Shown piece by piece: positions 45,793 through 64,000 of a DNA stretch of 64,000 bases (within the stretch, counting starts at the first letter, position 1; each line of letters starts with the position of its first letter). The position numbers were made by a program, and so were the translations under genes. Below the pieces are notes generated by a model that saw only the letters and a program-made list of their open reading frames with translations, was not told the origin of the DNA and made no database searches. This DNA is from Scenedesmus sp. PABB004 (lineage: Eukaryota): the NCBI GenBank assembly GCA_014905635.1, contig JABVCE010000020.1, positions 62,001 to 126,000 on the forward strand. The letters are read 5' to 3'.

Positions 45793-47218
45793 ATGCTGCT
45801 CGCGGCCTGCGGCCAGCACGCGCGCGCAGCTGCGGCCGGCACCGGCCCTTCGCTCGCGCCCCGGTCCGGCCGTGCGTCCCGGGCCTTCTGTGCGGGCGCG
45901 GCGCCGCCGGCGTGCCGGCGCGGCGGCGGCGGCAGCGGGAGCTCGGGACGCGCGGCGCGCGCCGCGCGGCGCGAGCTCCTCTCGGCGGCGCTGCTGCCCC
46001 GCCTCGCCGCCGGCCGCGGGTCGGGCGTGGTGGCCATGGCGGCGGCGGACGGCGGCGAGCGGGACCTGCTGATCGTGGGCCCGGGCGTGCTGGGCAGCTA
46101 TCTGGGCGTCCTCTGGCGCGAGGCCTTCCCCGGCGCGGCCGTCACGGCGCAGACCAACAGCGACGCCAACCACGAGCGGTGCGGTGCGCCGCGCCCGCCG
46201 GCCGCCCGCCCGCGCGCCGCGCCGCGCAGCGCCGCGCGGCCCCCGCGCCGCGCGCCGAGGGCTCGCTCTCCGCCCGCCTGCCCGGTGCGGCGCGGCGCGG
46301 CGCAGGCTGCGCAAGATGGGCCTGTCCCCCGTGACGCGCGACGGCGTGCCGCCGGGCAAGACCTTCCCGTACGTGCTCTTTTCCGCGCCGCCCAGCGGCA
46401 GCGAGGACTACCCCGCAGCGGTGCGGCCCTGGGGGGCATGCCGCTGGGGACGCAGCGAGGGGCGGGCGAGGGGGAGGGCGCGCTCGGAGAACGGCCGTGG
46501 GGCGCGCGGCGCGCGGCGCGTGCGGCAGCCGGCGAAGGCGGAGGCGCGCCACCGCCCAAACCGCCGCCGCCGCCGCGCCGGCGCGCAGGTCGCGGCCGCG
46601 GCGGCGCAGTGGGACGGGCGCGGGTCGTTTGTGTTCACGTCGTCGATGTCGGTCTGCGCGACCAACGACGGCGGCGCGGTCGGCGAGGACTGCCCGCTCG
46701 TCCCCGCCGGCGCGGCGCCGTCGACGGACCGCCTGCTGGGCGCTGAGGCCGCCGCGCTGTCGGCGGGCGGCAACGTGCTGCGCCTGGTCGGGCTGTACCA
46801 CGCGGGGCGGGGCCCGCACACGTTTTTCATGCGCCAGGGCGAGGTCGCGCGGTACGGCGGCTACGTGGTCAACATGATTCACTACGAGGACGCGGCGCGC
46901 CTCGCGCTCGCGATCCTGCGCGGCGACGGCGAGGCGGGCGGGAGCGGCGCGGGCTACCGGGGGCAGGTCTTCGTCGGCACCGACGGCCACCCGCTCACGT
47001 TTGAGGACATGGTCGCCGCATGCGCGCAGAGCGGGCTCTTCCCGGGGGCCGCGCCCGTCACGTTCACGGGCGGGCCCGAGGGCGGCGTGGGCAAGCGCGT
47101 GAGCAACGATGCGACGCGCGCGCGGCTCGGCGGCTGGGCGCCGCGGCACGCGAGCTTCCGTGACTTTTTCATCGCTGGGCGCGGCGCCGACTACTACGCC
47201 CAGAGCGGCCTGTTCTGA
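45793..47218 (+). CDS. Atypical short-chain dehydrogenase / NAD(P)-binding Rossmann-fold protein, probably plastidic
   Basis: DLLIVGPGVLG, FPYVLFSAPPSGSEDY, WDGRGSFVFTSS, VLRLVGLYHAGRGPH, VNMIHYEDAA and GKRVSNDATR; transit-like N-terminus. Confidence 0.8.
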
Positions 47219-47847
47219 GGGCGTGCGGAGGGAGGGCGCGCGCGAGAGAGGGAGCGGACCGAGTGCCGGGGCGCGGGCGTGACGGCGGTGGAACCCGCGG
47301 CCCCGCGGCTCGCTGGCCGTCGCCGCCGCCCCTTCCAGGCGTGCCGCCTCGCCGCCCTCACCGCTCGCGACGCCGGCAGGGGCGCAGGGAGCCCCGCGCG
47401 CAGCGCGCCGCGCCTCCGCAGCAGCGTCAGCGCCGCCGCCCGCCGCCACCCGCGCGTGCGCGCCTGGCCGCCCCCTCTGCATCGCGTGGACCTTTCCGGC
47501 TCCCCCGGCATCCGGCGGCCCCCGCCATTCCACAGGCGAGGATCGCAGTGCTCGCGGGATCGAGCGGGCACACGCGCTGCTGCCGCGCTTTAGCCGGTCC
47601 CGTGAGGTGCGGGGCGGTTTCAGCGTCGCGATCAGGCCGTCTTGCGCGCACGACGGCTGCGTTCCGCGATGGCCGGCTGATGCTGCTGCCGGGAACTATT
47701 CCCGCCTCGCGCACTGCGTGCTCGCGACCGCGGGGCGTGATCAACGCGCGCCTGATCAGCGTGCCGGCGCCGCACCGCCGTCACAGGCTCGCCGCCGCGC
47801 CGCGCGCGCTGCTCCGCCGCCAGCCCTCGCGGCGCGGCGGCGGCGCG

Positions 47848-50800
47848 ATGCACGCGTTCGGTGCCCACCACCGCAAGATGGACGGTGAGCGCGCGGCTCG
47901 CGCGCACCGACGCTGCTGCGGCGGCGGCAGGGGCGGCCCGCGCCCTGCCGCCAGGGCTGGCCGGCGCGGCGCGCCGCGCCGCGCCCGCCGGCCGGCGATC
48001 GGGCGCCGCCGCGCCGCGCCGGCAGCTTCGGCAGGCTCCCAGGGCGCCGGGTCACCTCCCGGCGCGCGCCGCGGCGCCGCGCGGCGCTCCGCGGCCGCCG
48101 CGGCGCGACAACCCTGGTCGCCCTGCTGCTGCGCCGCGCCGCGCAGACGCGCCGCTCGAGCCGGTGGCGGGCAGCTTCATGGGCTCGCTCGGCGCGGAGG
48201 GGTGTGGCATGTCGCTGGTGACTAGCGCGATGCCCTCGGCGCGGCAGCTGGCGCGCATGCGGCAGAAGCTCTCCCCCGAGGAGCTGCAGGCGGCGTTTGC
48301 GCGGCGGTGCGGGCGGCGGCCGCCGGCGCCGGCGCGGCCCCGCCCCGCGCCATCCTGCTTGCGGCCGCGCGCCGCGCCGCGCCCGACGCCCGCCTCGCCG
48401 CGGCCGGCCGCCGCGGCGCCGCGCGCAGCGAGGCGGCGCTGGCTGTGGTGAAGAAGGCGGCCAGCCGCGACTGGACGCCCGAGTACCTGCCGCCGAGCAT
48501 CGTGCCGCAGCGCTTCGGCAAGGGCTCGCTGCTCAAGAAGGCGGCACGCGTGAGCAGCGAGATGATACTGAAGGTGAGGAGGAGGGGCGGCGGCGCGGGG
48601 TCGAGGTTGCGGGGTTGAGGGTTCAGGGTTCTGGGGTTGGGGCTCAAAGGAGGCCGCCGAATGCGTCAGAGGCCGGCGCGGCGCAGAGGCCGGGGCGGCG
48701 CGCCCAGCAGCGGAGCAGAGAGGCGGCGCGGGCGCTTCGCCGACGCGTGTGCGTGCGCGGCCGCCGGCGCTGCCGCCGCCGCTGCGGCCGCAGGACGTCG
48801 GCATGGCGCGCAAGACCAAGATCGTGTGCACGCTCGGCCCCGCGTGCTGGAGCGAGGAGGGCCTGGCCGCGCTGCTGGACGCGGGCATGAACGTGGCGCG
48901 CTTCAACTTCTCACACGGCGACCACGACAGCCACGGCCAGGTCCTGGACCGCCTGCGCACGGTGCGGCGCCGCGGCGCGCGCATCGGGCTGGCCGCAGCA
49001 CGGCGGCGGCGTCCGGCCCTGGCAGCGCGCGCTCACCGCGGGTGCTGCATGCCGCCAGATCGCCGAGGCGCGCGGCAGCGTCATTGCCTACGCCCTGGAC
49101 ACCAAGGGCCCCGAGATTCGCACCGCCATGCTGCGCGGTGGCAAGGACATTCACCTCGCCAAGGGTGCGCCGCGCCGGGCGGCGCTGGGTGGTGAAAATG
49201 CGCACCCGCTGGCGGCGGCGCTCCGACGCGCGCCCGCCGCGCACACGGCCGCGCCCGGGGCGCAGGCCAGGAGGTGGAGGTGGTCGCGGTGGGGCCGGAG
49301 GCGTACACGAGCTGGGAGGGCTACGTCGACGAGGCCAGCGGCCGCGCCGTGATCGGGCTGAGCTACGACAAGCTCTGCCAGTTCCTCCGCCCCGGCAACA
49401 CCATTCTGCTCTCAGACGGCACTATCACGATCGAGGCGCGGCCGCGGCCCCGGGGCGCACGCACCCCGCCCGCCCGCCTGCCTTGGCACCTGCCTGCCTC
49501 GGGCCACCACGTGGCCCGTCCACTCGTGCTCACGCCCCCGCGGCGCTCTGTCCTGCCCCGCCCACGCTGCCTTGCTGCCTCGGCGCAGGTCAAGGAGATT
49601 CTGGACGACCGCCGCCTGCTGGGCGTCTGCCAGAACGCGCACAAGCTGGGGCAGCGCAAGAACTGCAACCTGCCCGGCGTCACCGTCGACCTGCCGGTCC
49701 TGGGGCCAAAGGACGTCGCCGACGTGACCGGCTTTGCCGCGGCGCGGGGGCTGGACTACATCTTTGCCAGCTTCGTGCAGAGCGCGGCAGACGTGCGCTT
49801 CATCCGCGAGGTGGGCGCCGCGGCGCTCGCGGCGGCAGTGTTTGCGGCGGCGTGCGCGGCGCGGCCGGGCGGGGCCTGAGGCCCGCGGCCGCGCGCCGCA
49901 GGTGCTCGAGGGCGCCGGCGCGCCGCACATCAAGATCATCGCCAAGATCGAGAGCCAGGCGCGGCGCACGCAGCACGCGCAGCACGCGCGCGGCGCGCAC
50001 AGCACGCGGCATGCACAGCACGCACCGCTGCGACGCCGCGCCGTCCGCCGCCGTCCGCCGCCGCGGCCGCCAGGCGGGGCTGCTGGCGCTGGACGAGGTT
50101 GTGATGGAGGCGGACGGCGTCATGGTCGCGCGCGGCGACCTCGCGATGGAGGCGCGGCGGGCGCGGCGGGCGCGGCGGGCACGGGGGCGCGGCCTCGAGC
50201 CTGGGCTGTGGCTTGCCGTGCTGAGCTTTGACCGCGCGTTGACCGCGCACGCTGCCGGCCGCGCCAGATCCCGCCCGAGAAGGTGGCCCTGGCGCAGAAG
50301 CTGATGATCAACAAGTGCCAGGTGGGGCGAGCGAGGGGGTCAGGGGTTTAGCGCGCAGGGCCCAGCGGTTCAGCGCGTCGGGGCCCAGCCCCTGCCGAGG
50401 CCTCCGCCCCCGCGCCCGCTCCCGCGCAGGCGTACGGCAAGCTGGTGATCTGCGCCACCCAGGTGCGCCGCGCCCCGCCGCGCCGCGCATGCCTCGCCCC
50501 GCTGCGCCTGAAACAACAATAATGCTCAAAATGACGCCCCCGCCCTCGCATCGGCGTCAGATGATGGAGAGCATGATCGACAGCCCAGCGCCCTCCCGCG
50601 CGGAGATGACCGACGTCGCCAACGCAGTCTTCGACGGCACCGGTGCGCTGCTGGGCACGCGCCGCCGCACGCGGTGAGCCCCGCGGGCCTGGCCTGAACG
50701 CTGCGCCGCCGCGCCCGCGCCGCAGGCGCGGTGATGCTGAGCGGCGAGACCGCCAACGGGCGGTACCCGGCGCTGGTCGTGTCGACCATGGCGGCCATCG

Positions 50801-52271
50801 TGGCCAACGCTGAGCTGGCGGTGGACTATGGCGAGCAGTTCCACGCCATCCGGTGCGGCGGCAGGGGGCGGTGGAGAGGGGCCCGCCCCGCGGCCGCGCG
50901 CCCGCGCTCGCGCCTGCGCCCGCATGCGCCGCCACGCCCGCGCCGGGCGCCTCGCCCGCCGCGCCGCGCCGCGCGCGCAGGGCCAACAACGCCGGCCTGG
51001 AGCCGGTGAGCCCCGCGGAGAGCCTGCTGGAGGGCGTGTGCACGCAGGCGCTGGGCTTCTGCGCCGACGCCGACGGCGACGGCGTGATTGAGCTCGGCGA
51101 GGGCTGCCTCATCGTGAGCGGCGCGCTGCCGGGCCCGCGCGTTTGGGCATGATTGTCAGACATTGCCAGGCAGTCAAAGTCAGACATTGCCATTGACTGA
51201 ACACAAACTCGCCCGTTTGACGTCGGAGGCGCGCCGCACGCACGCGCCGCGCCCGACGCCGCGCGCCCGCGCGCTCGCGCAGGTGGTGCTGACGCGCAGC
51301 GGGCTGGCGGCGCAGCTGGTCAGCAAGTACCGCCCGCCCTGCCCCGTGGTGGCGGTCGGGGACGACCCCGCCGCGCTGCGGGGCCTGGCGGGCTATTACG
51401 CCGTCTACTGCTGCCAGGTGGGCCTGAACAGCGGCGGCGGCTTTGCGCCCGACTGGGCCGGCCGGGGCTTTGTGGTTTAAGGGCTTTTGAGGGGCTGGCC
51501 GCCCTGGGAGGGCTCAGGCGCGCGCAGCGCCAGGCCTGCCGCCCGACTCACGCGCTGCGCGCCGCGCGGCGCGCGCGCCTGCAGGTGGCGTCGCTGTCGG
51601 CAGACCCCGACGCCGCGGTGCGGGCGGGCATGCGCATGGCGCTCGCGCAGGTGCGGAGCGCGCTGCGGCGCGGAACGCGCAGCTCACGTGGCGCGGGGAC
51701 GCGCCGCCGCCCTCCTGGGGGCTGCCGCGCCGCACATGCGACCACGACCACGTTTGATTTCAACCCTCACAAACAAAACCACACAAAACCCTGCCTCGCT
51801 ACACGCGCGCAGGGCCTGCTGACGGACGGCATGAAGGTGCTGCAGGTTACGGGGACCGACGGCTGCGCCGACGCGGCGCCGGTCGTCACGACCGAAAACC
51901 TGGGTGCGCGCGGCCGCCGCCCCCCGCGCGCGCCCTCCCGCGCCCTTTCGCCGCCGCGCCGCCGCGCCCGCACCCCTCCTCAAGCCCCCCGCCTCTCAAT
52001 CCTGGCACACGCGCACTCATCCCCCTCCCCTCCACCCCTCCCCCCTACCAGGGCTGCGGGCCAACTCGTTCATCCAGAAGCGCGACGCGCCGCACTACAC
52101 GAGCGCCTACGCGGGCGGCACGACGCACTGGCGCAGCACCGTGCGCATCGGCCGCGACGTCGTCGCCGCGCCGCCGGCGCGCTACAGGCGCGCGCCGCGC
52201 GGCACGCGGCGCCTCTGGCTCTCGCTTTGCCCACCCCCACTCCCACCCAAACACCCTCAACACACTCGCAT

Positions 52272-52308
<37 letters not shown>

Positions 52309-55300
52309 CTCCCTTGCCCCGGCCGCCAGGTCGCTCAAGATCGTGGCCACGCTCGGCCCCGCCACGTGGACGCCCGAGGGCATGGCGCGCATCATGACGG
52401 CGCAGGTCGACGTTGTGCGGTGCGCCTCATAGGTTTAGGGGTTAGGGTTTAGGGTTAAGGTGTTGACGTCGTGCGGTGCGCCTCCGCCCAGCGCCCGCGC
52501 CGCGCGTGCGGCGCCGCCACTCTCACCACACCGCCTCTCGCACCCCACGCCCTCTTGCCCCGTGCCCTCAACACGCTCACGCCCTCAACACCCACCCACC
52601 CACCCACCCACCCACCCGCCCACGCCCACCCGCGCGCACACACACAGCTTCAACGTGAAGCACCAGAGCCCCGAGCAGAACCAGGCGCTGCTCGACCTCT
52701 GGCGCGCCGCGGCCGACGCGCGGCGCGCGGAGGAGCGCGCCGCGCTGGGGCTGACGGACCTGGTGGAGCCCAAGCTCTCACACGTCGGCATCATGGTGCG
52801 GCCGCGGGCGCGGGGGCATGTGTGCACGTGCGTTCTGTGTGCGCGCGCGGTTGCCGCGTGCGCGTGCGTGGCGGCAGGGCGCGCGCACGGCACGGCCGCC
52901 GCGGGGCCGCCACGCCCCGCCCCGCCGCGCCCCGCGTCGCGCCGCGCCGCGCCCCAGGTCTCCATCCGCGGCCACGAGGTGCGCAGCGCGCGGCTCGACG
53001 GCGGCGCGGCCGTGGCGGTGGGCGAGGGCGAGACGCTCGAGTTTGTGGGCGTGGGCGAGGAGTACTACAGCTGGGTCGGCGGCCGCGCCGCGCCGGGCCT
53101 CGTGCGCGTCGGACTCTCGCTGCGCAACGTCGGCGTCGCCGCGCACCCGGGTGCGCGCGCCGGCGCCCCCGCGGCGCGCCCAGTGTCCGGCGCGCCTGTG
53201 CGTGGCCCCCTGACCCTCCGGTGAGCCCATGGTTCACCTGAACCCTAAACCACCCTCCCCGCCCCCTAAACCCCGCCGCGGCAGGCGACGTCATCCAGCT
53301 GGACGACGGCGAGCTGAAGGTTCGTGTGACCGAGGTGTTGTCGCCCACGTCCGTGCGCGGCGTCGCGCTCAACGCGCACAAGCTGCGCGAGCTCGCGCTC
53401 GTGCACGTGCACGGGGCGCGCCACGTTGAGGCGCCCGCGCTCAGCGCGCGGTGCATCGCCGACCTCGCCTTCGCGGCGGCCAACCAGGTGTGCAAGCGCG
53501 CGTGCGCGCCACCGCACGCGCCCCGCCGCGCGCGCGCTGGCACCGCCGCGCGCGCCGCCGCGCGCCTTGCCGCGCCGCTCATGCCCAGTCCGCGCGCGCC
53601 CTCCCACCGCCGCCGCCCGCCGCCCGCCGCCCCTCAGGCGACATACGTGAGCGTGCCGTTTGTGCGCAGCGCGGCGGACGTGCTCGAGGTGCGGCGCCTG
53701 CTGGACGAGGCGGGCGGCCCGGGCGTCAAGGTGGTCGCCCAGATCGACACCGGCAGCGCGGTGCGGGCGTACGACGAGATTCTTGCTGTGGCCGACGCCA
53801 TCATGGTCTCGCGCACCAACCTGGCCATGCTCGTGCGCCCGGAGAAGGCACGCAGGGTTGCGCCGCCGGGAGGGGCTCGCCGCTGGGAGGGCGGGGCTGC
53901 CGGCGCGGCGGCCGCCGGGGCGGGCCGGGCACTGCGGCGCAGGCGGCGGGCGCGGACGGCCGACCAAGCCGATCGCCGCCCCGCGCGCCGACGCCGGCGC
54001 CGGCGCCGCGCCGCGGCCACACACCACACACCGCAGGTCGCGCTGGCCCAGAAGTGGCTCATACAGAAGGCCCGCCTCGCCGGCCGGCCGGTCATGGTGG
54101 CGGGGCAGCTCATGGAGACCATGGCCGCCGCGCCGCGCCCCAGCAGGCGCGCCGCGCTGCGAACGGGGGCGCCGCGCCCGCCGCGCGCACGCGCGCGGCC
54201 CGCTGCTCGCCTCCCGCTGTGCCCGCCCCATCCAACACACGCGCGCACACACATGTGCGAATCACACGCGCCGCCGCCGCCGCCGCCGCCGCCAGGCCTG
54301 AGATCACGGACGTGGTCAACGCTGTCTACGATGGCGCCGACGCGGTGGTGCTCATGCAGGCGCGGCGCCGCGGAGCGGCCGGCGCGGGCCCGGCGCGGGG
54401 CCGGCGCGGGGCGCAGGCGGGCGCGGCGGACGGCGGCCGCGCGCGCCCGACCGAGCCCCGTGCGCGCGGCGCGCGCGCGCGCAGGAGACGTCGTGCGGGC
54501 TGTTTGCGCACGAGTGCGTGTCAACGACCGCCGCGATCATCGCCGACGCGGAGGGGTCGCTCGACCACAGCAGCAACTACAGGCGCGGTGGCGCGCCGCG
54601 CGCGCCTGGGGCCTGTCTGCCACGCGGCCGGCCCCGGGCGGCCCACAGCGTCGAGTTTGAACTCAACAGCTCAACCCCGCCGTCGCCCCGCCATCACCCC
54701 GCCGCCCCGCCCCGCAGCTTCATCCGCAACTTCACGCCCAAGCCCCTCGCCACGATCGAGGCGCGCCGCCGCTGCGCCGCGCCGCCGCCGCCGCCGCTGC
54801 CCACCGTCGCACCGGGCTGACCGTGCCCGCTCGCGCCCGCGCCGCTCTCCGCAGGCCGCCGCGAGCTCCGCCGCGGAGGCCGTGCTCGACGCCCAGGCGG
54901 GCCTGCTCGTGGTGCTCGCCGACTCGTCGGCGCCGCTGCGCTGGGCGGCTAAGTACCGCCCCGGCGTGCCGCTGCTCGCGCTCACGCGCGTCCACGCCGT
55001 CGCCGCGTCGGCGGGGCTCGTCCACGGCGTTGCTGCTTTCATCGTCCCCCCGAGGCGGGGAGCTGGGACAAGAACGCGCTCATCACGCTGGTGCGCGCCG
55101 CGGGCCACGCACGGCCAGGGCGGCCCGCGCGGGCCCCCGCGCGTGCCGCGCGTGCCGCGCGCCGCGCCGCCGAGGGCTCGCCGCCGCGTCCCCTGCCGCC
55201 GCCCCAGGCCGTCGAGATCAGCCGCAAGTTCTCGTCCGCCGGCGGCACGCCCCAGTTCCAGGCGCGCCGCGCGCGGCGCCCGCCCCCGCGCCACCGCCCC

Positions 55301-58300
55301 GGGCCGCCGCCGACCGCGCCGCGGCGCACGCCGCCGACCGCGCCGCGCCGCCGCGCCGCCGCGCCGCGCCGCCGCAGGCGGGCGACGGGCACAGCGACGT
55401 GCTGGTCGCGCTGAGCGGCCCCGACGCCGACCCCTTCTTGGATGTGCACAACTTCAACACGGCGCAGGTGCGGAGCTCTCAGGGCGCGGCGGGCTCGCGG
55501 GGCGCGGGCAGCCGAGGCGCTGGGCCGGGGGCTGACCGCTGAAGCGCGCGCTGCGGACGCTCGGCGACGCGCTGCGCCGCCCACGCGCGCCCGCCGCGCG
55601 CCGCCGGTGCCAGGTCGCGGCGCTCGTGTTTGGGGACGAGAGCACGAGCCTTACCGAGCCGGTCGGCTACCGCGGCGCGCAGACGCTCAGCATGCGCTCG
55701 ACCAAGGTGCGGCGGCGCACAGCAGCGCGCATGCGCCGCGCCGCATGCCTCGGCCGTCCTCCGCGGCCCGCACGCGCCCGGCTGGCGCCCGCCCTGACGC
55801 CCGGTCAAACCCCGGCGGCGCGTGGCCGCCGACGACGGTCAGGTGGGCCTGGACCTGATCATTGACCCGGTGCACTCGGCGCGCAAGACCAAGATCGTGT
55901 GCACGCTCGGCCCCGCGTGCTGGAGCGAGGAGGGCCTGGCCGCGCTGCTGGACGCGGGCATGAACGTGGCGCGCTTCAACTTCTCACACGGCGACCACGA
56001 CAGCCACGGCCAGGTCCTGGACCGCCTGCGCACGGTGCGGCGCCGCGGCGCGCGCAGCGGGCTGGCCGCGGCAGCGGCGCGGCCCCGCGGGCAGCCCCGC
56101 AGGCTCGGCCGGCTGACCCTCGTGCGCCGTCGCAGGTCGCGGCGGCCAAGGGCGCGCACCACGTTGCCACGCTGCTGGACACCAAGGGCCCCGAGATCCG
56201 CACCGCCATGCTGCGCGGCGGCAAGGACATCCAGCTCGCCAAGGGTGCGCCGCGCCGCGCAGCGCCGGGTGGTGGTGGCGCTGAAAACGCGCACCTGCTG
56301 GCGGCGGCGCTCCGACGCGCGTCCGCCGCGCGCGTGCCCGCCCTCGCCCGGGGCGCAGGCCAGGAGGTGGAGGTGGTCGCGGTGGGGCCGGAGGCGTACA
56401 CGAGCTGGGAGGGCTACGTCGACGAGGCCAGCGGCCGCGCCGTGATCGGGCTGAGCTACGACAAGCTCTGCCGCGACGTCAAGCCCGGCGGCCGCATCCT
56501 GCTGGCCGACGGCGCCATCACGATACAGGCGCGGCGCCGCGCGGCGGCGCGCCGCCGCGGCGGAGCGGGCTCGGGCGCCAGGGGGCTGGGCGACACGCAG
56601 GGGGCGCGCCGCCTGCGTGCCGGGCTGCGGCGGGCCGAGCTCAGGCGCCGCCCGTCGCGCTCTGCAACCTCTCCCCCCTTCTCACGCCAGGTGAAGGAGA
56701 TTCTGGACGCCAGCCGCCTGCTGGGCGTCTGCCTCAACGCCAAGTCCCTGGGGCAGCGCAAGAATTGCAACCTGCCTGGCGTGTTGGTCGACCTGCCCGT
56801 GCTGGGGCCAAAGGACGTCGCCGACGTGACCGGCTTTGCCGCCGCGCGGGGCATGGACTTTGTGGCCGCGAGCTTCGTGCAGAGCGGCGACGACGTGCGG
56901 TGCGTCGCGGGGCGCGGGGCGCGCGCCGCGCTGGCGCACACGGCCGGCTGGCCCGCCGCGCGGCCGCCGCCCCCGCCGCGTCGCCCTGACGCCCCACTCG
57001 GCCGCGTGCCTGCCTCGCCGCCGCGCGTGCAGCTTCATCCGCCGCGTGCTGGACGGCGCGGGCGGGGGCGGCGTGCGCATCATCAGCAAGATTGAGTCGT
57101 GGCACGGCGTCATTAACTACGACGACATCCTCGCCGCCTCGGGTGCGGCGGCGGCGGCGGCGGCGGTCGTGGCTGTGACGGCCCGCGGCGCGGGGAGGTT
57201 TTCTTCAGTGCCGAGCAACCCTCGCGAGGGCTCAGGCCGGGCAGGGCCCCAAACCCGCCGCCGCGCACCGCCAACGCGCGCCCCGCGCACCGCCGGCGGC
57301 GCCGCCGCCGCAGATGGGATCATGGTCGCGCGGGGCGACCTCGCGATGGAGGTGCCGAGCGAGAAGGTGGCGCTGGCGCAGAAGATGATGACGACCAAGG
57401 CCAACATCGCGGGCAAGTTTGTGGTCATCGCGACGCAGATGCTGGAGAGCATGACGGCCAACCCCCTGCCCACGCGCGCGGAGATGACCGACGTGGCAAA
57501 CGCCGTGTTTGACGGCGCCGGTGCGTGACTACCTGAGCACGCGCCGCCGCGCGCTCTCAGCCGCGCCGGCACGCCGCCCTGAGCGCTGCGCCCGCGCCGG
57601 CCGCGCACGCGCCGGCCGCGCACGCGCAGACGCGGTGATGCTGAGCGGCGAGACCGCCAACGGCGCGTGGCCGGCGCTCGCGGTGTCGACCATGGCCTCG
57701 ATCGTCACTAACGCAGAGGTCGGGGTCAACAGCTACCAGGTACCTGGTAGCTACGTGTGCACGCGCTTGGCTGGCCACGCGGCACGCCGGCGCCCGCCGC
57801 CGGCGGCCTCCGCCAGCCCGCCGGCCAACCACCGCCCATGCCCGCGTCCCTCGCCCCCCTCTTCACCCCCAGGCCTTCCAGTTCATCCGGGCATTCACCG
57901 ACCGGCCGATGAGCAGCCGCCAGGTGCGGCGGCGGCGCCAGCAGACGCGCCCCAGCGCGCCGCACGCCGGGCGGCCGCGGCGCCCCCGCGCTGCTGCTGC
58001 GCCGCCGCGCCGCGGCCCCGCGCTGCGCCCGGAGCGCCCGCCTCAGGCTCCTGTCTCTGTCCCCCGCGGCCACACAGGCGCTGCTCGCCAACGTGGCAAA
58101 GAACGTCATCGACACCGACGCGGGTGCGGCGCCCCGCCAACCGCGCTGCCGCCGCGCCGCCGCGGGCCCCGCCGCGCCCGCGCCGCGCTGCCCGCGGCGC
58201 ACGCCCACGCCCACGTGCCGCGCGCGCGCCGCAGGCCTGGTGCTCGTGCACGCGGGCGGGCGCACGGGCACGGCGTGCGACACGCAGGACGCGCTCGACT

Positions 58301-61300
58301 ACGTGCGCTATGTGGTCAAGTACCGCCCTGCCGTGCCGGTGCTGCTGCTCACAGAGGACGCCGCCCTCGTGCGCGCGACCGCGCCGCTGTGCGTGCCGCG
58401 CCGCCGCGCCGCTGCCGCCGCGCCACGCCCCGCGCCGCCTCGCAGCACGCGGCCGAGCCCCGTGCAGCGCCGCGCCTCGCCCCACTCACGCGCGCGCCGC
58501 CGGCCCCTCACGCCCCGCCCCGCCCGCGTTAGGTACGGCGTGCACGCGCGGCTCTTTGCGTCGACGCCCCGCGCCGCGCAGTCGCTGGAGCACGAGCTCT
58601 TCCTGGAGGACGCGGTGCTGTCGGCGGTGCGCGACGGCCTCTGCCCGCCGGGCAGCCAGGTCGTGTGCGCGCTGCAGACGCACCAGCCGGCGCTCGAGGT
58701 CGCGGGCGCGGGCGCGGGCGGCGGCGAGGGCGCGGAGGTGCCGATGCTGAGCTTCAAGGTGCGGCGAGAGGCTGTCGCTGTTGGGTTGAGCTCGAAGCGC
58801 ATGGCCAGGATTCCTGCGCCCTAAGCGCAGCGAGGCCTCACCGCGGCCCCCGCCGCCGCCGGCGGCTTGCTGCCGCGCAGGTGGCGCCCGGCAGGGCGGA
58901 GGACGCGCGCCCACGGTCGCGCCCCGGCACCGCCGGCGGCGCCAAGGCCGGCGAGGGCGCGCTGTCGCGCGCGTTCAGGGGCCTCGCGGCCGGCGCCGCC
59001 GGCAGCGGCGGCGACGGCGCGCCCGCGGGCAGCTCGCCGCGCGCGCGCGCCGCCGGCGCCGCCGGCGGGGCGGCGCACAACGGCAACGGCAGCGGCGGGG
59101 GCCGGCGTGACAGTGAGGCATACTGGGCCAAGACGCTCTCGCTGCGGAACACCTCCATCGCGCTCGAGGACATCCTGCAGGTGCGGGGGGCCCAGGGGCG
59201 GGCGGCGAGCAGCAGGAGCGGACCCCAGCCGGCGCGGGGCGCGCGGCCTGCCGCCGGCCCCAGCGGGGCGCGCGGCGCCGCCGTCGGCGCTGCGAGCGGA
59301 CGGTCGCCGCCGCGGCTGACGTCCGCTGCCGCACCGCCGCGCTGCGTGACACGGAACGGGCAGCCGCACGACGGCGCGGCGCGCAAGACCAAGATCGTGT
59401 GCACGCTCGGCCCCGCGTGCTGGAGCGAGGAGGGCCTGGCCGCGCTGCTGGACGCGGGCATGAACGTGGCGCGCTTCAACTTCTCACATGGCGACCACGA
59501 CAGCCACCTGCAGGTCCTCCAGCGCCTGCGCAAGGTGCGGCGCCGCGAGCGCGGCCGCCGCCTGCGCGCGCCGCGGTCCGCCCCGGCGACTGCGCTGCGG
59601 CGCGGGCGCGCGCCACGGCCCCCGCGCCCGCGCACGACGCGCGACCGCGGCGCCGCAGGTCGCGGCGGCCAAGGGCTCGCCCGTGTCGTTCCTGCTGGAC
59701 ACCAAGGGCCCCGAGATCCGCACCGCCATGCTGCGCGGCGGCTCGCTGGAGCTCGCGCACGGCCAGGAGGTCGTGCTGGTGGCGGTGGGCGAGGAGTACA
59801 AGACCTGGGAGGGCGGGCTCAACCCAGACACGGGTGCGCGCGGCGCGGCCCGCTATATGCTGGCCCCGCGCGCCGTGGCCCGCGCCAGCGGCGGCGATGC
59901 GGTGCCGGCTCGGGACGCGCTGCGCCGGCGGGGCTCACGCCGGCGCCCGCGTCCGTGGCAGGCGTCGCGGAGATTGGTGTGAGCTACGACAAGCTCGCCT
60001 CCAGCGTGGCGCCGGGCTGGCTCGTCAAGTTGGCGGACGGCGGGCTGAGCATCCGAGTGGCCGAGGTGCTCGACGCCAAGCGCGTCAAGGGCGTGTGAGT
60101 GTGCCGTGGGTTGGGTGACCCCGGGCCCGCGGCGCCGCGCGCTCTGCGGTCGCGGCGGCGCAGCGGCGCCCGCGCGCCCCGCGTGACGCCCGTGCGCCGC
60201 CCGCGCAGGTGCCTCAACGCCAAGGCGCTCGGTCAGAACAAGAACGTCAACCTGCCCGGCGTGCAGGTCGACCTGCCCGTGCTCACCAGCAAGGACATCA
60301 ACGACCTGGTGCGGCGGGGCCCAGGGGCTGGGCGGCGCGCGGCGGTGGGGCGTGTGGAGTGCCTGGGCGCCAGGCGGCGCCGGCGCCAGCGGGAGGCGGC
60401 CGATCACCGCCGCCGTGGCGTGACGATCCGCGCGGCCGCGCAGGTGTGCTTTGCGGTGCGGCACAAGTTTGACTTCGTGGCCGCGAGCTTCGTGCAGAGC
60501 GGCGACGACGTGCGGTGAGCCCGCCGACTGCCCCCCCCCCCCCCCCCCCGTGCCACGCCGCACTCGCGCCGGCCAGCCGCCCTCGTCGCTGCCCACCGCG
60601 CCCGCCCACCGCGCCCGCCCGCCCGCCGCGGCACGGCACACGTCCGCCGCGCCCACCCCCGCCGCGCCACACCCCGCCGCCAGCTTCATCCGCGAGGTGC
60701 TCGACCGCAGCGGCGGCGCGTCGATCAAGGTGATGTCCAAGATTGAGAACGAGGCGGGCCTGGAGCACTACGACGACATCCTGGCCGTCACCGACGGCGT
60801 CATGGTCGCGCGGGGCGACCTCGCGATGGAGGTGCCGAGCGAGAAGGTGGCGCTGGCGCAGAAGATGATGACGACCAAGGCCAACATCGCGGGCAAGTTT
60901 GTGGTCATCGCGACGCAGATGCTGGAGAGCATGACGGCCAACCCCCTGCCCACGCGCGCGGAGATGACCGACGTGGCAAACGCCGTGTTTGACGGCGCCG
61001 GTGCGTGACTACCTGAGCACGCGCCGCCGCGCGCTCTCAGCCGCGCCGGCCCGAGCGCTCGCACTGCCGCCCACACGCAGACGCGGTGATGCTGAGCGGC
61101 GAGACCGCCAACGGCGCGTGGCCGGCGCTCGCGGTGTCGACCATGGCGGCCATCGTGGCCAACGCGGAGGTTGCCAACAGCTACTACAGCTCAGCCACGT
61201 TCATGCTGGTGCGCGAGCGGCGGGCCCCTGGGGCCGCGCTGCCCGCACCGGCGCCGCCGCGGGCCGCCTCCTCCGTGCTCGACGCGGCCGCGACGCTCGC

Positions 61301-62433
61301 GAGCTCGCGCGACCGCGCCCCGCCGCCCCGCCGCGCCCGCCGCCTCCCACCTCCAGGACCACACGAGCAAGCCGTACAGCCGGCTCGAGGCGCTCGCGGG
61401 CGCGGTGTGCTGCGCGGTGACCGACGCCAACGCGCAGCTCGTCGTCGTCTGCAGCGCCACGGGCGAGGCGGCACGCCTCGTCAGCAAGTATCGGCCCTAC
61501 GTGCCCCAGGCGCGCGCCCCAGGGGCTGCCAGCGGGGGCTCGCGGCGCTGCTGCAGGGTTTCTGTCAGTCAGGGCTCGCTCCCAGCGCGGGCCGGCCGGG
61601 CGCCGCGCGCGGCTCGGCCCCGCGCGACGCGCCCCCGCGCGCCGCCGCGCCGCCGCGCCGCCGCGCCGCCGCGCAGGTGGTGGTGACGGACAGCGACGTC
61701 GTGCTGCGCGAGGCGGGCGTGCACTTTGGGCAGCACGGCTTTGCGGTCCCGGTGCTCGACGACGCGCCGAGCCTCGCGCTGCAGGCGATGGACTGGGCGC
61801 ACGAGCAGGTACGTGCGCGCAGGAGAGGGGGGGTCGGAAACGCTTGCGGGCGAGCGCGGCGGGGCTTGCGGGCGCGCGTGGGGCGCTCGCCCGAGCCTGC
61901 GCGCCCGAGCGCCGCCGCCGCCGCCGGCGCCGGGCGGTGCGCAGGGGCTGTGGGGCGGCGTCGGCGCGGTGCTGCTGGTGGCGGGGCACTACGAGGCCAA
62001 CGCAGACATGATGCCCAACCTGCGCGTCCTCCAGGCGCGGCGGGGGCGCAGCGCGGGCGCTCAGGCTCAGGCTCCGGTGCGAGGCCGCCGTCCCGGGCCG
62101 TCAGACGCGTGACGCCGCGGCGCCCGCGCCGCCCGCCGCTGCTGCGTGCAGGTCACCGACGCGGCCCGCGCGGGCACCGCCGCCGCGGCCGAGGCGCCCG
62201 CCGCGGCGGCCTCGCCCGTGGCCGCGCCTGCGGCCGCGGCCGAGCCCGGCGCGCCCGCGCCCGCGCCCGTGGCGGCGGCGGCGGCGGAGCTGGAGGTGGA
62301 CGGCCTGGACGAGGTTGAGGTGTCGCCCGAGCTGCTGCGCACGCTCTCGCGGCGCATGAGCCTGAGGCGCAGCAGCATGCCCACGCCCGGCGGCCCGGGG
62401 CCGCTGCGGCGCCAGTTCAGCAAGGCGTCGTGA
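47848..62433 (+). CDS. PYK: Giant multi-module pyruvate kinase: four tandem PK modules (1, 3 and 4 intact, 2 degenerate), roughly 2,300-2,450 aa by manual count, ~50 introns
   Basis: [11 protein letters not shown] / ARFNFSHG / DTKGPEIRT / NLPGV / [AS]KIE / [10 protein letters not shown] / ATQM.ESM / [14 protein letters not shown] / [10 protein letters not shown] / KYRP recur in modules at ~48794-51903, ~55843-58758 and ~59364-62034. A diverged copy lies at ~52330-55467. Linker exons are open with no stop; the only terminal stop is TGA at 62431. One base must be restored in the C run at ~55050. Confidence 0.85.
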
Positions 62434-62816
62434 GCCTCGCGGGGGAGACGGCGCGGCGGGCGGGCTGCGTTGCCGCTGCCGCTGCACGCACTGCGCAGGA
62501 GTTGACCTATTTGCTTGCGCCCCATGCGCGCGTTCCGATCGAGTTGGGTGCTGGCCGAGTCGTGGGATGTGGGGCCTGGCCAAAAGAACAGAAAAGAAGG
62601 GCAACGCACTGTCCACGGCGGGCCGCGCGGCGCTGCGACCGCAGAAGCGCAACAGCGGCGGCGCCGCTCCATCAAGCGTCCCATCGCAGCGGCGCTAGTC
62701 CCGCCACTCGATCGCGCCCCGATCCGGCCCCCGCGACGCCCCGCGCGCGCCGGCGCGCAGCGCGCACACCCGCCGCTGCTCCCACACCCGTCGCCGCTGC
62801 GCGGCTCCCTGCGGCC

Positions 62817-64000
62817 ATGCGGGCCGCCGCGGCGCTCTGGATTCTCGTGGCGCTGCTGGTCGCTCTGGGCGCCGCGGCGCAGAGCAGCCCGGCGCCGGCA
62901 GCAGCGCGCGCCGCGGGCGCCGCGGCGCCGGCAGCAGCGCGCGCCGCTCGCGCCGCGGCGCCGGCGGCAGCGGGCGCCCCGGCGCCGGCAGCAGCGGGTT
63001 CGGCGGCGCCGGCAGCTCCGCCAGCAGCGAGCTCCGCCAGCAGCAAGCCGGCGCCGTCGGCCAAGCGCTCCTTCGCCCTCCCTCTCCGAACGGCGGGTCG
63101 CTGGATCGTCGACGCTAAAGGAGAGCGGGTGCGCCTCAAGTGCTCCTCTTGGAGCGGCGCGCAGGTAGGTTGGGATGGTCGTGCGCTGGCGGCGGCCGGC
63201 TGCGCGCGCGGCGGCTCGCTGCGGCCAGCCACCCGGCGCCGCCGCCGAATGGCGCCGCCGCCGCCTGTCCAGGAGCGCTGGTACGTCCCGAGCGGCCTCT
63301 GGGCGGTGCAGCGCGACGTCGTGCCCGCGCTCCTCCGGTCTGCGGGCTTCAACTGCGTGCGGCTGGTCTGGTCCCTCGAGATGGCGCTCGGCCGCGCCAA
63401 CGGCTCCGCCGCGGTCGTGCCGCCCGCCGCGGTCGCGGCCAACCCCGACCTGGTCGGCAAGCCGCCGCTGGCGGTGCTGGACGCGGTCATCGCCGCCATA
63501 GCGCGTGCGGGGCTGCTGGTGGTGCTCGACAACCACTCGTCCGACGCGATGTGGTGCGGCGGCGGCGGCGGCGGCGCTGTGCGGGGCGCGGGGCGCGGCC
63601 GAGCGGCCGGGCGGCGGGCGGCGGCTGGGCCCCTGACCGGCGCGGGGCGCGCCGCCCAACACGCAGGTGCTGCGGGCTGACCGACGGGAACGGCCTGTGG
63701 TACACGGACGCGTGGAGCGAGGCGCGCTGGCTGGAGGGCTGGGGCCTCATGGCGCGGCGCTACGCGCGCGTACAGGCTGTGATCGGCGTCGGCCTGCGCA
63801 ACGAGCCGCGGCCGACGTTCCGGCGCGGCGCGCTCGTGATGCCGACCTGGGGCGGCGCCGACCCCGCGACCGACTACGCGCTCGCGTTTGAAAAGGCCGC
63901 CGCCGCGGTGTTGGCCGTGCGCCCCGGCACGCTCGTGTTTGCCCAGGGCATGCTCGGCGGCCGCGACCTGCGCGGCGCGCGCCGCCGGCCGCTCGTGCTG
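62817..64000 (+). CDS. Secreted glycoside hydrolase family 5 (cellulase-like) protein, 3' end outside the window
   Basis: Signal peptide MRAAAALWILVALLVALGAAA; A/P-rich repeats; LPLRTAGRWIVDAKGERVRLKC..W, GFNCVRL, VVLDNH...WCC..DGNGLW and LRNEPR (catalytic acid/base NEP at ~63800-63808). Confidence 0.88.

What the first reader, a model, noticed from the sequence alone, without database searches (positions are those of the whole stretch)
47848..62433. Single-chain 'pseudo-tetrameric' pyruvate kinase: four PK subunits in one polypeptide
Seen: four complete PK-fold modules in tandem on one strand. They are joined by spliceable linker exons with no stop (GLRANSF...[14 protein letters not shown]; ...[25 protein letters not shown]; ...[27 protein letters not shown]), and each linker ends in a related motif resembling the PK N-domain. 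Established: PKs are normally oligomers, typically tetramers, of ~55 kDa subunits. Inference: the gene encodes the whole tetramer as one ~250 kDa chain, which fixes the stoichiometry and lets each subunit specialise. I recall biochemical reports of a ~210-240 kDa monomeric PK from the green alga Selenastrum minutum and of a very long Chlamydomonas PK model (both unverified). This gene could be the molecular basis. Caveat: continuity depends on fixing a 1-nt frameshift at ~55050.
Basis: partly seen in the sequence, partly recalled or inferred. Interest (0 to 1): 0.88.

Follow-up and report, generated by a model that had tools for sequence, protein, structure and literature searches.

The report
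Four-in-one pyruvate kinase gene
One gene strings four pyruvate kinase units, one of them catalytically dead, into a single protein of about 255 kDa; it is real, but the same gene is already annotated in many green algae.

Summary
On the + strand, 47848-62433 is one 54-exon gene. Its 2436-aa, 254.8-kDa product carries four complete pyruvate kinase (PK) modules joined by conserved coding linkers.

- **Frameshift:** continuity needs one base added in a run of six C at 55046-55051. Orthologues show that the residues on both sides are conserved.
- **Orthologues:** the protein is colinear, linkers included, with annotated "pyruvate kinase" proteins of 2100-2550 aa. These come from Tetradesmus, Scenedesmus, Monoraphidium (= Selenastrum) minutum, Raphidocelis, Chlamydomonas, Volvox and others. 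A transcriptome-derived orthologue spans modules 1-3.
- **Protein evidence:** a Chlamydomonas paralogue (PYK3, Cre05.g234700) has a methylated Arg at residue 2261, listed in a cilia methylome table.
- **New detail:** module 2 has lost all catalytic motifs in all 14 close (family A) sequences compared. Its predicted A-A interface residues stay conserved.
- **Sister families:** one has a degenerate module 4, another keeps all four intact.
- **Not shown:** the "single-chain pseudo-tetramer" fold is plausible. A module 1-module 2 dimer model passes its controls, possibly from memory of solved PK tetramers.

No RNA or protein data exist for this organism. Verdict: a new member of a kind already known in databases, little described in print. 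Interest is moderate.

The parts
47848..62433 (+). Whole coding region of the four-module pyruvate kinase gene: 54 exons, 2436 aa, 254.8 kDa
   Evidence: Exon map derived from the window's own database protein P0005. I corrected it at both ends and at exon 28. It is colinear with 11 orthologues. Mass.
47848..48805 (+). N-terminal extension (aa 1-118, exons 1-3 and the start of exon 4). It carries the conserved RDW-PEY...MILKD motif that leads into module 1. The start codon is uncertain: an in-frame ATG also lies at 47680.
   Evidence: Aligned to orthologues. ATG list. Weak codon periodicity over 47680-47847 (.77/.71/.89).
48806..52056 (+). Module 1 (aa 119-623): PK barrel plus lid plus C domain, catalytic motifs intact
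   Evidence: Module HMM covers positions 1-490. Motifs [30 protein letters not shown] and ATQMMESM are present. Pfam pieces.
52057..52182 (+). Linker 1 (aa 624-665, within exon 18 at 52052-52187): [21 protein letters not shown]...ARYR
   Evidence: 59% identical to Scenedesmus P0001 aa 654-702 by tblastn. Alignment. Coding periodicity.
52183..55616 (+). Module 2 (aa 666-1181): complete PK fold with all catalytic motifs lost ([38 protein letters not shown])
   Evidence: Module HMM covers 1-490. Motif table: the same degeneration appears in all 14 family A rows, 12 orthologues plus the window's two models. Forms one clade with 100* support.
55046..55051 (+). Run of six C where one base must be added to keep the conserved C-domain sequence of module 2 in frame
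   Evidence: Sequence. Orthologue sequences. Uncorrected reading stops at aa 1162. P0005 avoids the problem with a poor donor (55019|GTCCAC), which deletes 24 conserved residues.
55617..55878 (+). Linker 2 (aa 1182-1223, exon 31 and the start of exon 32): [42 protein letters not shown]
   Evidence: 85% identical to P0001 aa 1213-1245. Conserved as far as Chlamydomonas and Volvox.
55879..58892 (+). Module 3 (aa 1224-1743): catalytic motifs intact
   Evidence: Pfam pieces.
58893..59378 (+). Linker 3 (aa 1744-1844, exon 43): a low-complexity Gly/Ala stretch, then the conserved [22 protein letters not shown]
59379..62034 (+). Module 4 (aa 1845-2329): catalytic motifs intact
   Evidence: Pfam pieces.
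62035..62433 (+). C-terminal tail ending ...[10 protein letters not shown], with stop TGA at 62431-62433
   Evidence: T. obliquus orthologues end ...[10 protein letters not shown]. P0005 instead splices across the stop into the next gene.

Best explanation
**What it is.** This is one nuclear gene of a very GC-rich green alga of the Sphaeropleales type. It encodes a single polypeptide of about 255 kDa made of four complete eukaryotic-type pyruvate kinase modules.
- Each module has its own N-terminal helix motif, barrel, lid and C domain.
- The modules are joined by short conserved linkers.

**Shown.**
- Modules 1, 3 and 4 keep every catalytic and cation-binding motif.
- Module 2 has lost them all, and has done so since before Sphaeropleales and Chlamydomonadales diverged. 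It is therefore a conserved pseudo-enzyme module.

**Inferred (about 0.6).** The four modules pack against each other within the chain, as the four subunits of an ordinary PK tetramer do. That would give an obligate 3 active : 1 dead hetero-pseudotetramer. The dead module would keep a subunit-like A-A contact and act as a structural or regulatory partner. The diverged C domains would give each position its own regulatory properties.

**The frameshift.** The one-base defect in the C run is most likely a homopolymer error of the assembly (about 0.8).
For: **One gene, four modules**
- Four full module matches in one open spliced frame.
- Pfam on the window's own database protein P0005 finds 4 PK barrels and 3 PK_C at threshold. 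The orthologues P0003 and P0018 have 4 + 4.
- The protein is colinear with 11 orthologues, linkers included. 49 of 53 junctions show no indel against T. obliquus.
- Linker exons have coding-type GC periodicity; introns do not.
- Linker 1 fills most of the 426 nt between exons 17 and 19, and it is conserved coding sequence. That leaves no room for a terminator and a promoter.

**Family distribution**
- 29 of the 61 sequences scanned have exactly four near-complete modules. The 61 are the 60 database hits plus my model. Two of the 29 are this window's own gene.
- Each module position in family A forms a single clade with support 99-100*.

**Independent evidence in relatives**
- P0035, whose source name marks it as an MMETSP record (I recall MMETSP as a transcriptome project), runs colinearly from the N-extension through module 1, linker 1, module 2 and linker 2 into module 3.
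- A cilia methylome table lists Cre05.g234700 "Pyruvate kinase 3 (PYK3)" with methyl-Arg at R2261 (PMC11244166, passage read).

**Dead module**
- Motif table.
- In module 2, the predicted interface residues are invariant in 17 of 42 positions, against 67 of 467 elsewhere. This is across 14 family A sequences, Fisher p = 9e-5.

**Packing**
- T. obliquus module 1 was modelled with module 2 as the partner. The score was 0.72; the best of 3 controls was 0.10.
- That mark was reached by 51 of 78 solved complexes and 2 of 108 mismatched pairs.
- The runs agree in at least 98% of contacts, and the partner pLDDT is at least 82.
- The alignment was not used. The calibration is mostly on microbes.
- PK tetramers are solved, so this pass may come from memory. 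It shows likeness, not binding.

**Size**
- 254.8 kDa for the window's protein and 242.5 kDa for the M. minutum orthologue.
- A review cites monomeric PK from a green alga, Knowles et al. 1989 (PMC8100219, passage read).
Against: - There is no transcript or protein evidence from this organism. No RNA run was listed, and no genome or read data could be consulted.
- As assembled, the frame is broken at 55046-55051 and would stop at aa 1162.
- Most orthologue sequences are automatic gene predictions, which can share errors. The window's own database model P0005 wrongly fuses three genes, which shows how fallible such models are.
- The intramolecular tetramer rests on analogy and on one two-module model that may simply recall solved PK tetramers. 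No full-length model was possible.
- Secondary literature disagrees about the S. minutum enzymes. PMC13409958 calls them homotetramers of 56-57 kDa. PMC8100219 cites monomers and homodecamers. I could not read the primary papers.
- Pfam finds only 3 of 4 PK_C domains in P0005 at threshold.
Confidence: 0.75

Rival explanations
1. It is a single four-module chain, but not a closed intramolecular tetramer. Modules would pair between chains to form larger oligomers or filaments, or only some modules would pair while the rest hang free.
For: Nothing tested here tells intra-chain from inter-chain pairing. The dimer model used separate chains. One review cites a homodecameric algal PK (Lin et al. 1989, via PMC8100219), so unusual assemblies are reported in this group.
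Against: Four modules match the usual PK subunit number. A review cites a monomeric green-algal PK. The C domains are position-specific and conserved between orthologues, which fits fixed partners within the chain.
Confidence: 0.2
2. The frameshift at 55046-55051 is real. In this strain the gene would be broken (a truncated product of about 1160 aa, or mRNA decay), or it would use the alternative donor at 55019 and lose 24 residues of the module 2 C domain.
For: The assembly as given has six C. The database model P0005 uses the 55019 donor to stay in frame.
Against: The rest of the 7.3-kb coding sequence is intact. Modules 3 and 4 downstream keep all catalytic motifs and 79-81% identity to T. 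obliquus. The defect lies in a homopolymer, a common site of assembly error (general knowledge). The 55019 donor (GTCCAC) departs from the GTGCG(G/C) or GTGAG form of most GT donors in this gene. It also removes residues that are conserved in orthologues.
Confidence: 0.1
3. These are four separate tandem PK genes, wrongly joined by gene prediction and by my orthologue-guided model.
For: Automatic models in this region do over-merge: P0005 joins three unrelated genes. There are no RNA data for this organism.
Against: - No stop codon closes modules 1-3.
- The joining exons are conserved in sequence and length as far as Chlamydomonadales, and they show coding periodicity.
- The gaps between modules are ordinary introns of 122-183 nt.
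- A transcriptome-derived orthologue spans three modules.
- The residue numbered 2261 of the paralogue PYK3 is listed as methylated in a cilia methylome table.
Confidence: 0.03

Closest known systems
Annotated long 'pyruvate kinase' proteins of Sphaeropleales and Chlamydomonadales. Examples: Tetradesmus obliquus OEZ85_012601 (2467 aa), Scenedesmus sp. NREL 46B-D3 (2320 aa), Monoraphidium minutum (2279 aa), Raphidocelis subcapitata (2278 aa), Chlamydomonas reinhardtii XP_001695738.1 (2430 aa).
   Same: They share the four-module order, the N-terminal extension, the linkers, the dead module 2 and the C-terminal motif. Module-by-module identity is 74-81% to T. obliquus, 51-71% to M. minutum and 35-66% to C. 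reinhardtii.
   Different: Only species-level divergence, plus the one-base defect in the C run. The window's database model also fuses the gene wrongly to its neighbours.
Chlamydomonas reinhardtii PYK3 (Cre05.g234700, 2306 aa) and its relatives in Pleodorina, Volvox, Haematococcus, Sanguina, Ulva and Ostreobium
   Same: Four PK modules in one chain, with a similar N-terminal W-PEY extension. PYK3 appears in a table of methylated cilia proteins, with methyl-Arg at R2261 (PMC11244166).
   Different: This is a paralogous family. Here module 4, not module 2, is degenerate (ARGDLG becomes ARGK/A/S/NLG; ATQM becomes (S/A/T)R(Q/H)M, TGQM in Ostreobium). Several members start with MGC.
Canonical pyruvate kinase chains in the PDB (for example 3eoe_A at 511 aa, 7z4r_A, 3khd_A, PKM chains); I recall these as homotetramers
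   Same: Each module aligns end to end with these chains, including the short N-terminal segment (E = 1e-113 to 1e-93). Modules 1, 3 and 4 carry the catalytic motifs. The predicted module 1-module 2 contact uses the barrel helices around [12 protein letters not shown] and PxPxRAExTDVANAV. I recognise this, from recall, as the A-A interface of PK tetramers.
   Different: The solved chains listed are 470-606 aa and carry one module each. None of the 60 listed of 105 matches is multi-module. Here four non-identical modules are joined covalently and one is inactive.
Monomeric pyruvate kinase purified from a green alga (Knowles, Dennis and Plaxton 1989, FEBS Lett 259:130)
   Same: A review cites it as a monomeric PK (PMC8100219). 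The M. minutum orthologue predicts 242.5 kDa. I recall a reported size of about 235 kDa, but no call confirms it.
   Different: I could not read the primary paper, so species, size and compartment are unverified. No sequence link has been made in anything I could read.
Plant plastid PK alpha/beta hetero-oligomers
   Same: Non-identical PK subunits must assemble together for a functional enzyme. The subfamilies are 30-40% alike (PMC13409958, passage read). This is an analogy for subunit specialisation.
   Different: Those subunits are separate polypeptides from separate genes. They are not fused, and the passage I read does not describe either as catalytically dead.

Membership tests
Pyruvate kinase (Pfam PF00224 barrel + PF02887 C domain) | PK barrel domain present | tested here: met
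   There are 4 barrel stretches in P0005, 1389 bits against a cut-off of 30. Raw ORF pieces also hit.
Pyruvate kinase (Pfam PF00224 barrel + PF02887 C domain) | PK C-terminal alpha/beta domain after each barrel | tested here: met
   Pfam finds 3 stretches at threshold in P0005 and 4 in the orthologues P0003 and P0018. The module HMM covers positions 1-478 to 1-490 of 491 in all four window modules.
Pyruvate kinase (Pfam PF00224 barrel + PF02887 C domain) | Catalytic and cation-binding motifs RxNxS, DT(K), K-I-E, RGDLG and T-Q-M. That these are the functional residues is recalled, not taken from a call. | tested here: met
   Met in modules 1, 3 and 4. Not met in module 2, which reads [30 protein letters not shown] and AGQLMETM.
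Pyruvate kinase (Pfam PF00224 barrel + PF02887 C domain) | Converts PEP + ADP to pyruvate + ATP | not testable with these tools
   Needs an enzyme assay.
Green-algal four-module PK, family A (dead module 2) | Four modules in the same order, with positional orthology | tested here: met
   Each window module is nearest to the same-numbered module of the orthologues. The clades A1 to A4 each need one change, with support 99-100* (FastTree).
Green-algal four-module PK, family A (dead module 2) | Conserved N-terminal extension, three linkers and C-terminal RRxFS motif | tested here: met
   Alignments.
Green-algal four-module PK, family A (dead module 2) | Module 2 lacks the catalytic motifs | tested here: met
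   All 14 of 14 family A rows of the motif table show this: 12 orthologues plus the window's two models.
Green-algal four-module PK, family A (dead module 2) | Produced as one mRNA and one polypeptide | not testable with these tools
   Not testable for this organism: no RNA run was listed. Relatives give indirect support: P0035, a transcript-derived orthologue, spans three modules, and PYK3 R2261 is listed as methylated in a cilia methylome table.
Single-chain pseudo-tetramer (intramolecular PK-like quaternary structure) | Modules contact each other through PK subunit interfaces within one chain | tested here: inconclusive
   A two-chain model of T. obliquus module 1 with module 2 scored 0.72 against a best control of 0.10. 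The mark was reached by 51 of 78 solved complexes and 2 of 108 mismatched pairs. Contacts agree in at least 98% and the partner pLDDT is at least 82. The pass may come from memory of solved PK tetramers, and it cannot tell intra-chain from inter-chain pairing.

The most novel reading that the evidence does not exclude
Green algae would carry an unrecognised class of single-chain PK: an obligate intramolecular hetero-pseudotetramer in which one position is a conserved pseudo-enzyme.
- The dead position differs between families. It is module 2 in the window's family, module 4 in the PYK3 family, and none in a third family known only from metagenomes.
- The dead module would keep its A-A interface and act as a built-in regulatory or scaffolding subunit.
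- This gene family would be the long-missing molecular basis of the monomeric green-algal PK purified in 1989.
Probability: 0.45. Interest if true: 0.6.

Novelty: new member of a known kind. Interest (0 to 1): 0.42.

Why it matters
PK is a textbook homotetramer whose regulation works through subunit interfaces. A natural enzyme with all four subunits on one chain fixes the stoichiometry and the neighbour relations. It also lets each position evolve on its own.

Here three positions stay catalytic and one becomes a conserved pseudo-enzyme. That makes this gene family a ready-made system for asking what each subunit position contributes to allostery. It also offers a candidate gene for an old biochemical oddity, the monomeric algal PK.

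For genome annotation, the locus shows two pitfalls. Automatic models can fuse neighbouring genes. They can also splice around a homopolymer error at the cost of conserved residues.

The gene itself is not new. Orthologues are annotated in many green algae, so the value lies in the under-described architecture rather than in a discovery.

Tried and rejected
- **RNA evidence.** No RNA holder was listed for window:50500-60400. This says nothing about expression.
- **Whole genome.** None is held for this window.
- **Poly(A) signal.** TGTAA is absent on both strands between 44 and 64 kb. It occurs only 3 and 2 times in the whole window, so it cannot mark transcript ends here.
- **Cluster look-up.** The look-up for names of the Chlamydomonas proteins was switched off. 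I did not repeat it.
- **PYK1 equation dropped.** I had recalled that Chlamydomonas PYK1 (Cre12.g533550) is the long protein. A 2D-DIGE spot list places PYK1 between CPN60A and MAS1, proteins I recall as about 60 kDa (supplement of PMC4977305).
- **Literature.** The terms are given in those calls. They include "four pyruvate kinase", "pyruvate kinase domains", "tandem pyruvate kinase", "fused pyruvate kinase", "monomeric pyruvate kinase" and "235 kDa". None found a paper describing a four-module PK. This library lacks most subscription journals, so that is weak evidence of absence.
- **Papers not held.** Mitchell et al. 2005 (flagellar glycolysis) is not held. Supplements of PMC3186191 could not be read.
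- **Earlier findings of this scan.** None by words, place or sequence.
- **Dead-module clade not interpreted.** The tree groups the dead modules of families A and B with Mesostigma module 4 (98*). The program warns that long branches meet there, so I draw no conclusion about a shared dead ancestor.
- **Full-length fold.** A structure prediction of the whole chain was not possible because of the 1200-aa limit.

Full report
**The region.** The window is extremely GC-rich, 72-83% in 2-kb windows. I scanned 81 stop-to-stop reading-frame pieces of the + strand between 47.5 and 62.8 kb against Pfam.
- 19 hit the PK barrel (PF00224) or the PK C domain (PF02887), 1 hit Cellulase, and 61 hit nothing.
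- The barrel profile restarts at its position 2 near 48809, 55882 and 59382.
- A fourth, more divergent barrel lies in 53242-54657.
- At DNA level the modules are 75-88% alike over parts of their length. They are diverged copies, not an assembly duplication.

**Relatives.** I searched with the divergent piece (window:53242-54657) among long proteins only. It found a 2320-aa "pyruvate kinase" of Scenedesmus sp. NREL 46B-D3 (P0001) and a 2279-aa one of Monoraphidium minutum (P0002).
- tblastn of both against the window gave a colinear chain of matches from 48.1 to 62.1 kb. It included the stretches between modules: P0001 623-654 at 51810-51905 (72%), 654-702 at 52051-52194 (59%), and 1213-1245 at 55611-55709 (85%).
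- A search with P0001 over its whole length returned 60 proteins. They include four-module proteins of Tetradesmus, Raphidocelis, Edaphochlamys, Chlamydomonas (XP_001695738.1 at 2430 aa; CHLRE_05g234700v5 at 2306 aa), Volvox, Gonium, Astrephomene, Haematococcus, Sanguina, Ulva, Ostreobium and Mesostigma.
- One hit, P0005 (3338 aa), carries no source name. That marks it as the window's own predicted protein.

**Gene model.** P0005 maps exactly onto the window from 45793 to 64000. It joins three genes: an upstream gene that ends at the TGA at 47216-47218, the PK gene, and a downstream GH5 cellulase-like gene.
- The fusions are artefacts. The T. obliquus orthologues end ...[10 protein letters not shown], and the window reads ...[10 protein letters not shown] followed by TGA at 62431-62433.
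- The cellulase-like gene has its own ATG at 62817, followed by a hydrophobic, signal-like start.
- My model keeps P0005's splice sites between 47848 and 62433. It ends at the stop codon and extends exon 28 to the donor at 55090.
- It has 54 exons and 53 introns of 75-262 nt, with 41 GT and 12 GC donors. It encodes 2436 aa of 254.8 kDa.

**The frameshift.** The orthologues read GL(I/V)HG...(R/K)N(E/D)L(V/I)KL|AV(E/D)LSRK here.
- In the window the first part ([13 protein letters not shown]) and the second part ([13 protein letters not shown]) lie in different frames. They meet in a run of six C at 55046-55051. One more C restores the conserved sequence.
- P0005 stays in frame by using a poor donor (55019|GTCCAC), which deletes 24 conserved residues.
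- Uncorrected, my model stops at aa 1162.
- Everything downstream is intact and conserved, and the site is a homopolymer. I therefore think an assembly error is the most likely cause, but I could not check reads.

**Are the linkers coding?**
- Exons are less GC-rich than introns (0.716 against 0.830).
- Core exons have GC of .71/.46/.95 at codon positions 1/2/3. Linker exons have .66/.56/.97.65/.49/.96 and .76/.74/.96. Introns are flat at .84/.82/.84.
- In an alignment with 11 orthologues the linkers are conserved as far as Chlamydomonas and Volvox. Examples are xTxxxRSTKVxLDLIxxP before module 3 and TLSxRxTxIxLxDI(L/M) before module 4.
- 49 of 53 exon junctions show no length difference from T. 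obliquus. The other 4 are in variable stretches.
- The segment before each module also aligns with the N-terminal residues of solved PK chains. P0005 492-1000 aligns with residues 11-493 of 7z4r_A.

**Modules.** I built a module HMM from the aligned modules. It matches the window's protein four times at nearly full length.
- Of the 61 sequences scanned (the 60 database hits plus my model), 29 have exactly four near-complete modules. Two of the 29 are this window's own gene.
- Modules 1, 3 and 4 carry [20 protein letters not shown](S/N), VARGDLAME and ATQM(M/L)ESM.
- Module 2 carries [30 protein letters not shown] and AGQLMETM.
- That these motifs hold the phosphate-binding Arg, the cation ligands, the catalytic Lys/Glu/Asp and the proton-donor Thr is my recollection of PK enzymology, not the result of a call.
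- All 14 family A rows have the same kind of dead module 2. They are 12 orthologues from Sphaeropleales and Chlamydomonadales plus the window's two models.
- A second family (CHLRE_05g234700 and relatives, Ulva, Ostreobium) has a degenerate module 4. A third family, four unnamed metagenome proteins, has four intact modules. Mesostigma has two partly degenerate modules.

**Module history.** Each window module is most like the same-numbered module of its orthologues: 74-81% to T. obliquus, against 36-65% between modules of the window.
- In a FastTree tree of 97 modules, each position of family A is one clade with support 99-100*. The four-module order therefore predates the split of the two orders.
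- The C domains are 24-39% identical between modules but 66-74% identical between orthologues. Each position has its own conserved C domain.
- In the first 160 columns, modules 1 and 3 are 87% identical within the window. That is more than either is to its orthologue (84 and 81%). Modules 3 and 4 share 88% DNA identity over 57304-57736 and 60784-61184. This points to gene conversion within the gene.

**Evidence for one mRNA and one protein, from relatives only.**
- P0035 carries an MMETSP name. I recall MMETSP as a transcriptome project. It aligns colinearly with Chlamydomonas residues 8-1526 and with the window's residues 43-1544. It spans module 1, linker 1, module 2 and linker 2 into module 3, where the contig ends.
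- A table in "The methylome of motile cilia" (PMC11244166, passage read) lists Cre05.g234700, "Pyruvate kinase 3 (PYK3)", with a methylated Arg at 2261. That residue lies in the last module of that 2306-aa paralogue.

**How it may work.** The number of modules equals the usual number of PK subunits.
- I modelled T. obliquus module 1 with module 2 as two chains, with module 2 as the partner.
- The score was 0.72 and the best of 3 controls was 0.10. The mark was reached by 51 of 78 solved complexes and 2 of 108 mismatched pairs.
- The runs agree in at least 98% of contacts, and the partner pLDDT is at least 82. My alignment was not used.
- The contact is symmetric. It uses the barrel helices around [12 protein letters not shown] and PxPxRAExTDVANAV, which I recognise from recall as the A-A interface of PK tetramers.
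- Because PK tetramers are solved, the pass may come from memory. It shows likeness, not binding, and it cannot tell intra-chain from inter-chain pairing.
- In module 2, the predicted contact residues are invariant in 17 of 42 positions, against 67 of 467 elsewhere, across 14 family A sequences (Fisher p = 9e-5). These residues overlap the old active-site region. In a module without catalysis, that conservation still needs another reason, and an interface is the simplest one.
- I therefore favour an intramolecular 3 active : 1 dead pseudo-tetramer, at about 0.6. This step is an inference.

**What is known.** The gene family is annotated as "pyruvate kinase" in many genomes, so the kind is known in databases.
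[quoted passage not shown] - Another review says both S. minutum isozymes are homotetramers of 56-57 kDa (PMC13409958, passages read).
- I could not read the primary papers. My memory of about 235 kDa is unverified.
- Selenastrum minutum is Monoraphidium minutum in the NCBI taxonomy. Its orthologue predicts 242.5 kDa.
- None of my ten searches found a description of the four-module architecture or of the dead module. The library lacks most subscription journals.

**Verdict.**
It is plausible but untested about the fold, and too generous about novelty.
- This is a new member of a kind already present in databases.
- The conserved pseudo-enzyme module and the three families are the parts most worth a closer look.

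Noticed in passing
window 45793-64000: The window's own database protein (P0005, 3338 aa) fuses three genes. These are an upstream gene ending at TGA 47216-47218, the four-module PK, and a downstream GH5 cellulase-like gene. The cellulase-like gene has its own ATG at 62817 followed by a hydrophobic, signal-like start. The model splices across both real stop codons.
   Followed up: partly
window 47848-62433 (introns): 12 of the 53 introns have GC-AG borders, mostly with the donor G|GCGCG(G/C). All 12 give orthologue-colinear protein across the junction. Introns are richer in GC (0.83) than exons (0.72).
   Followed up: partly
window 48805-49831 vs 55878-56936; 57304-57736 vs 60784-61184: Stretches of modules 1 and 3, and of modules 3 and 4, are 81% and 88% identical at DNA level. 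In the first 160 module columns, modules 1 and 3 are more alike (87%) than either is to its orthologue (84 and 81%), which suggests gene conversion within the gene. Intron positions are partly shared between modules: 52/0 and 320/1 in modules 1, 3 and 4.
   Followed up: partly
window 47680-47847: An in-frame upstream ATG at 47680 would add 56 residues rich in Arg, Ala, Ser and Pro with no acidic residues, which looks like a transit peptide. Codon periodicity there is weak (.77/.71/.89). The true start codon, and hence the compartment, is open.
   Followed up: partly
proteins P0022, P0028, P0029: The C. reinhardtii PYK3 protein (P0022), Ulva (P0029) and Mesostigma (P0028) four-module PKs begin with MGC. 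Several family A proteins of Chlamydomonadales begin with MGGRGSK. From recall, these look like N-terminal acylation motifs. That would fit the listing of PYK3 in the cilia methylome table.
   Followed up: no
proteins P0012, P0013, P0016, P0020 (unnamed metagenome sources): A third family of four-module PKs keeps all four modules catalytically intact. In the module tree, modules 1 and 3 pair, and modules 2 and 4 pair. This suggests a two-module intermediate that was duplicated.
   Followed up: no
window about 52270-52320 (intron 18): A CA-dinucleotide microsatellite lies in the intron just before module 2. It shows up as a THTHTHTH translation.
   Followed up: no
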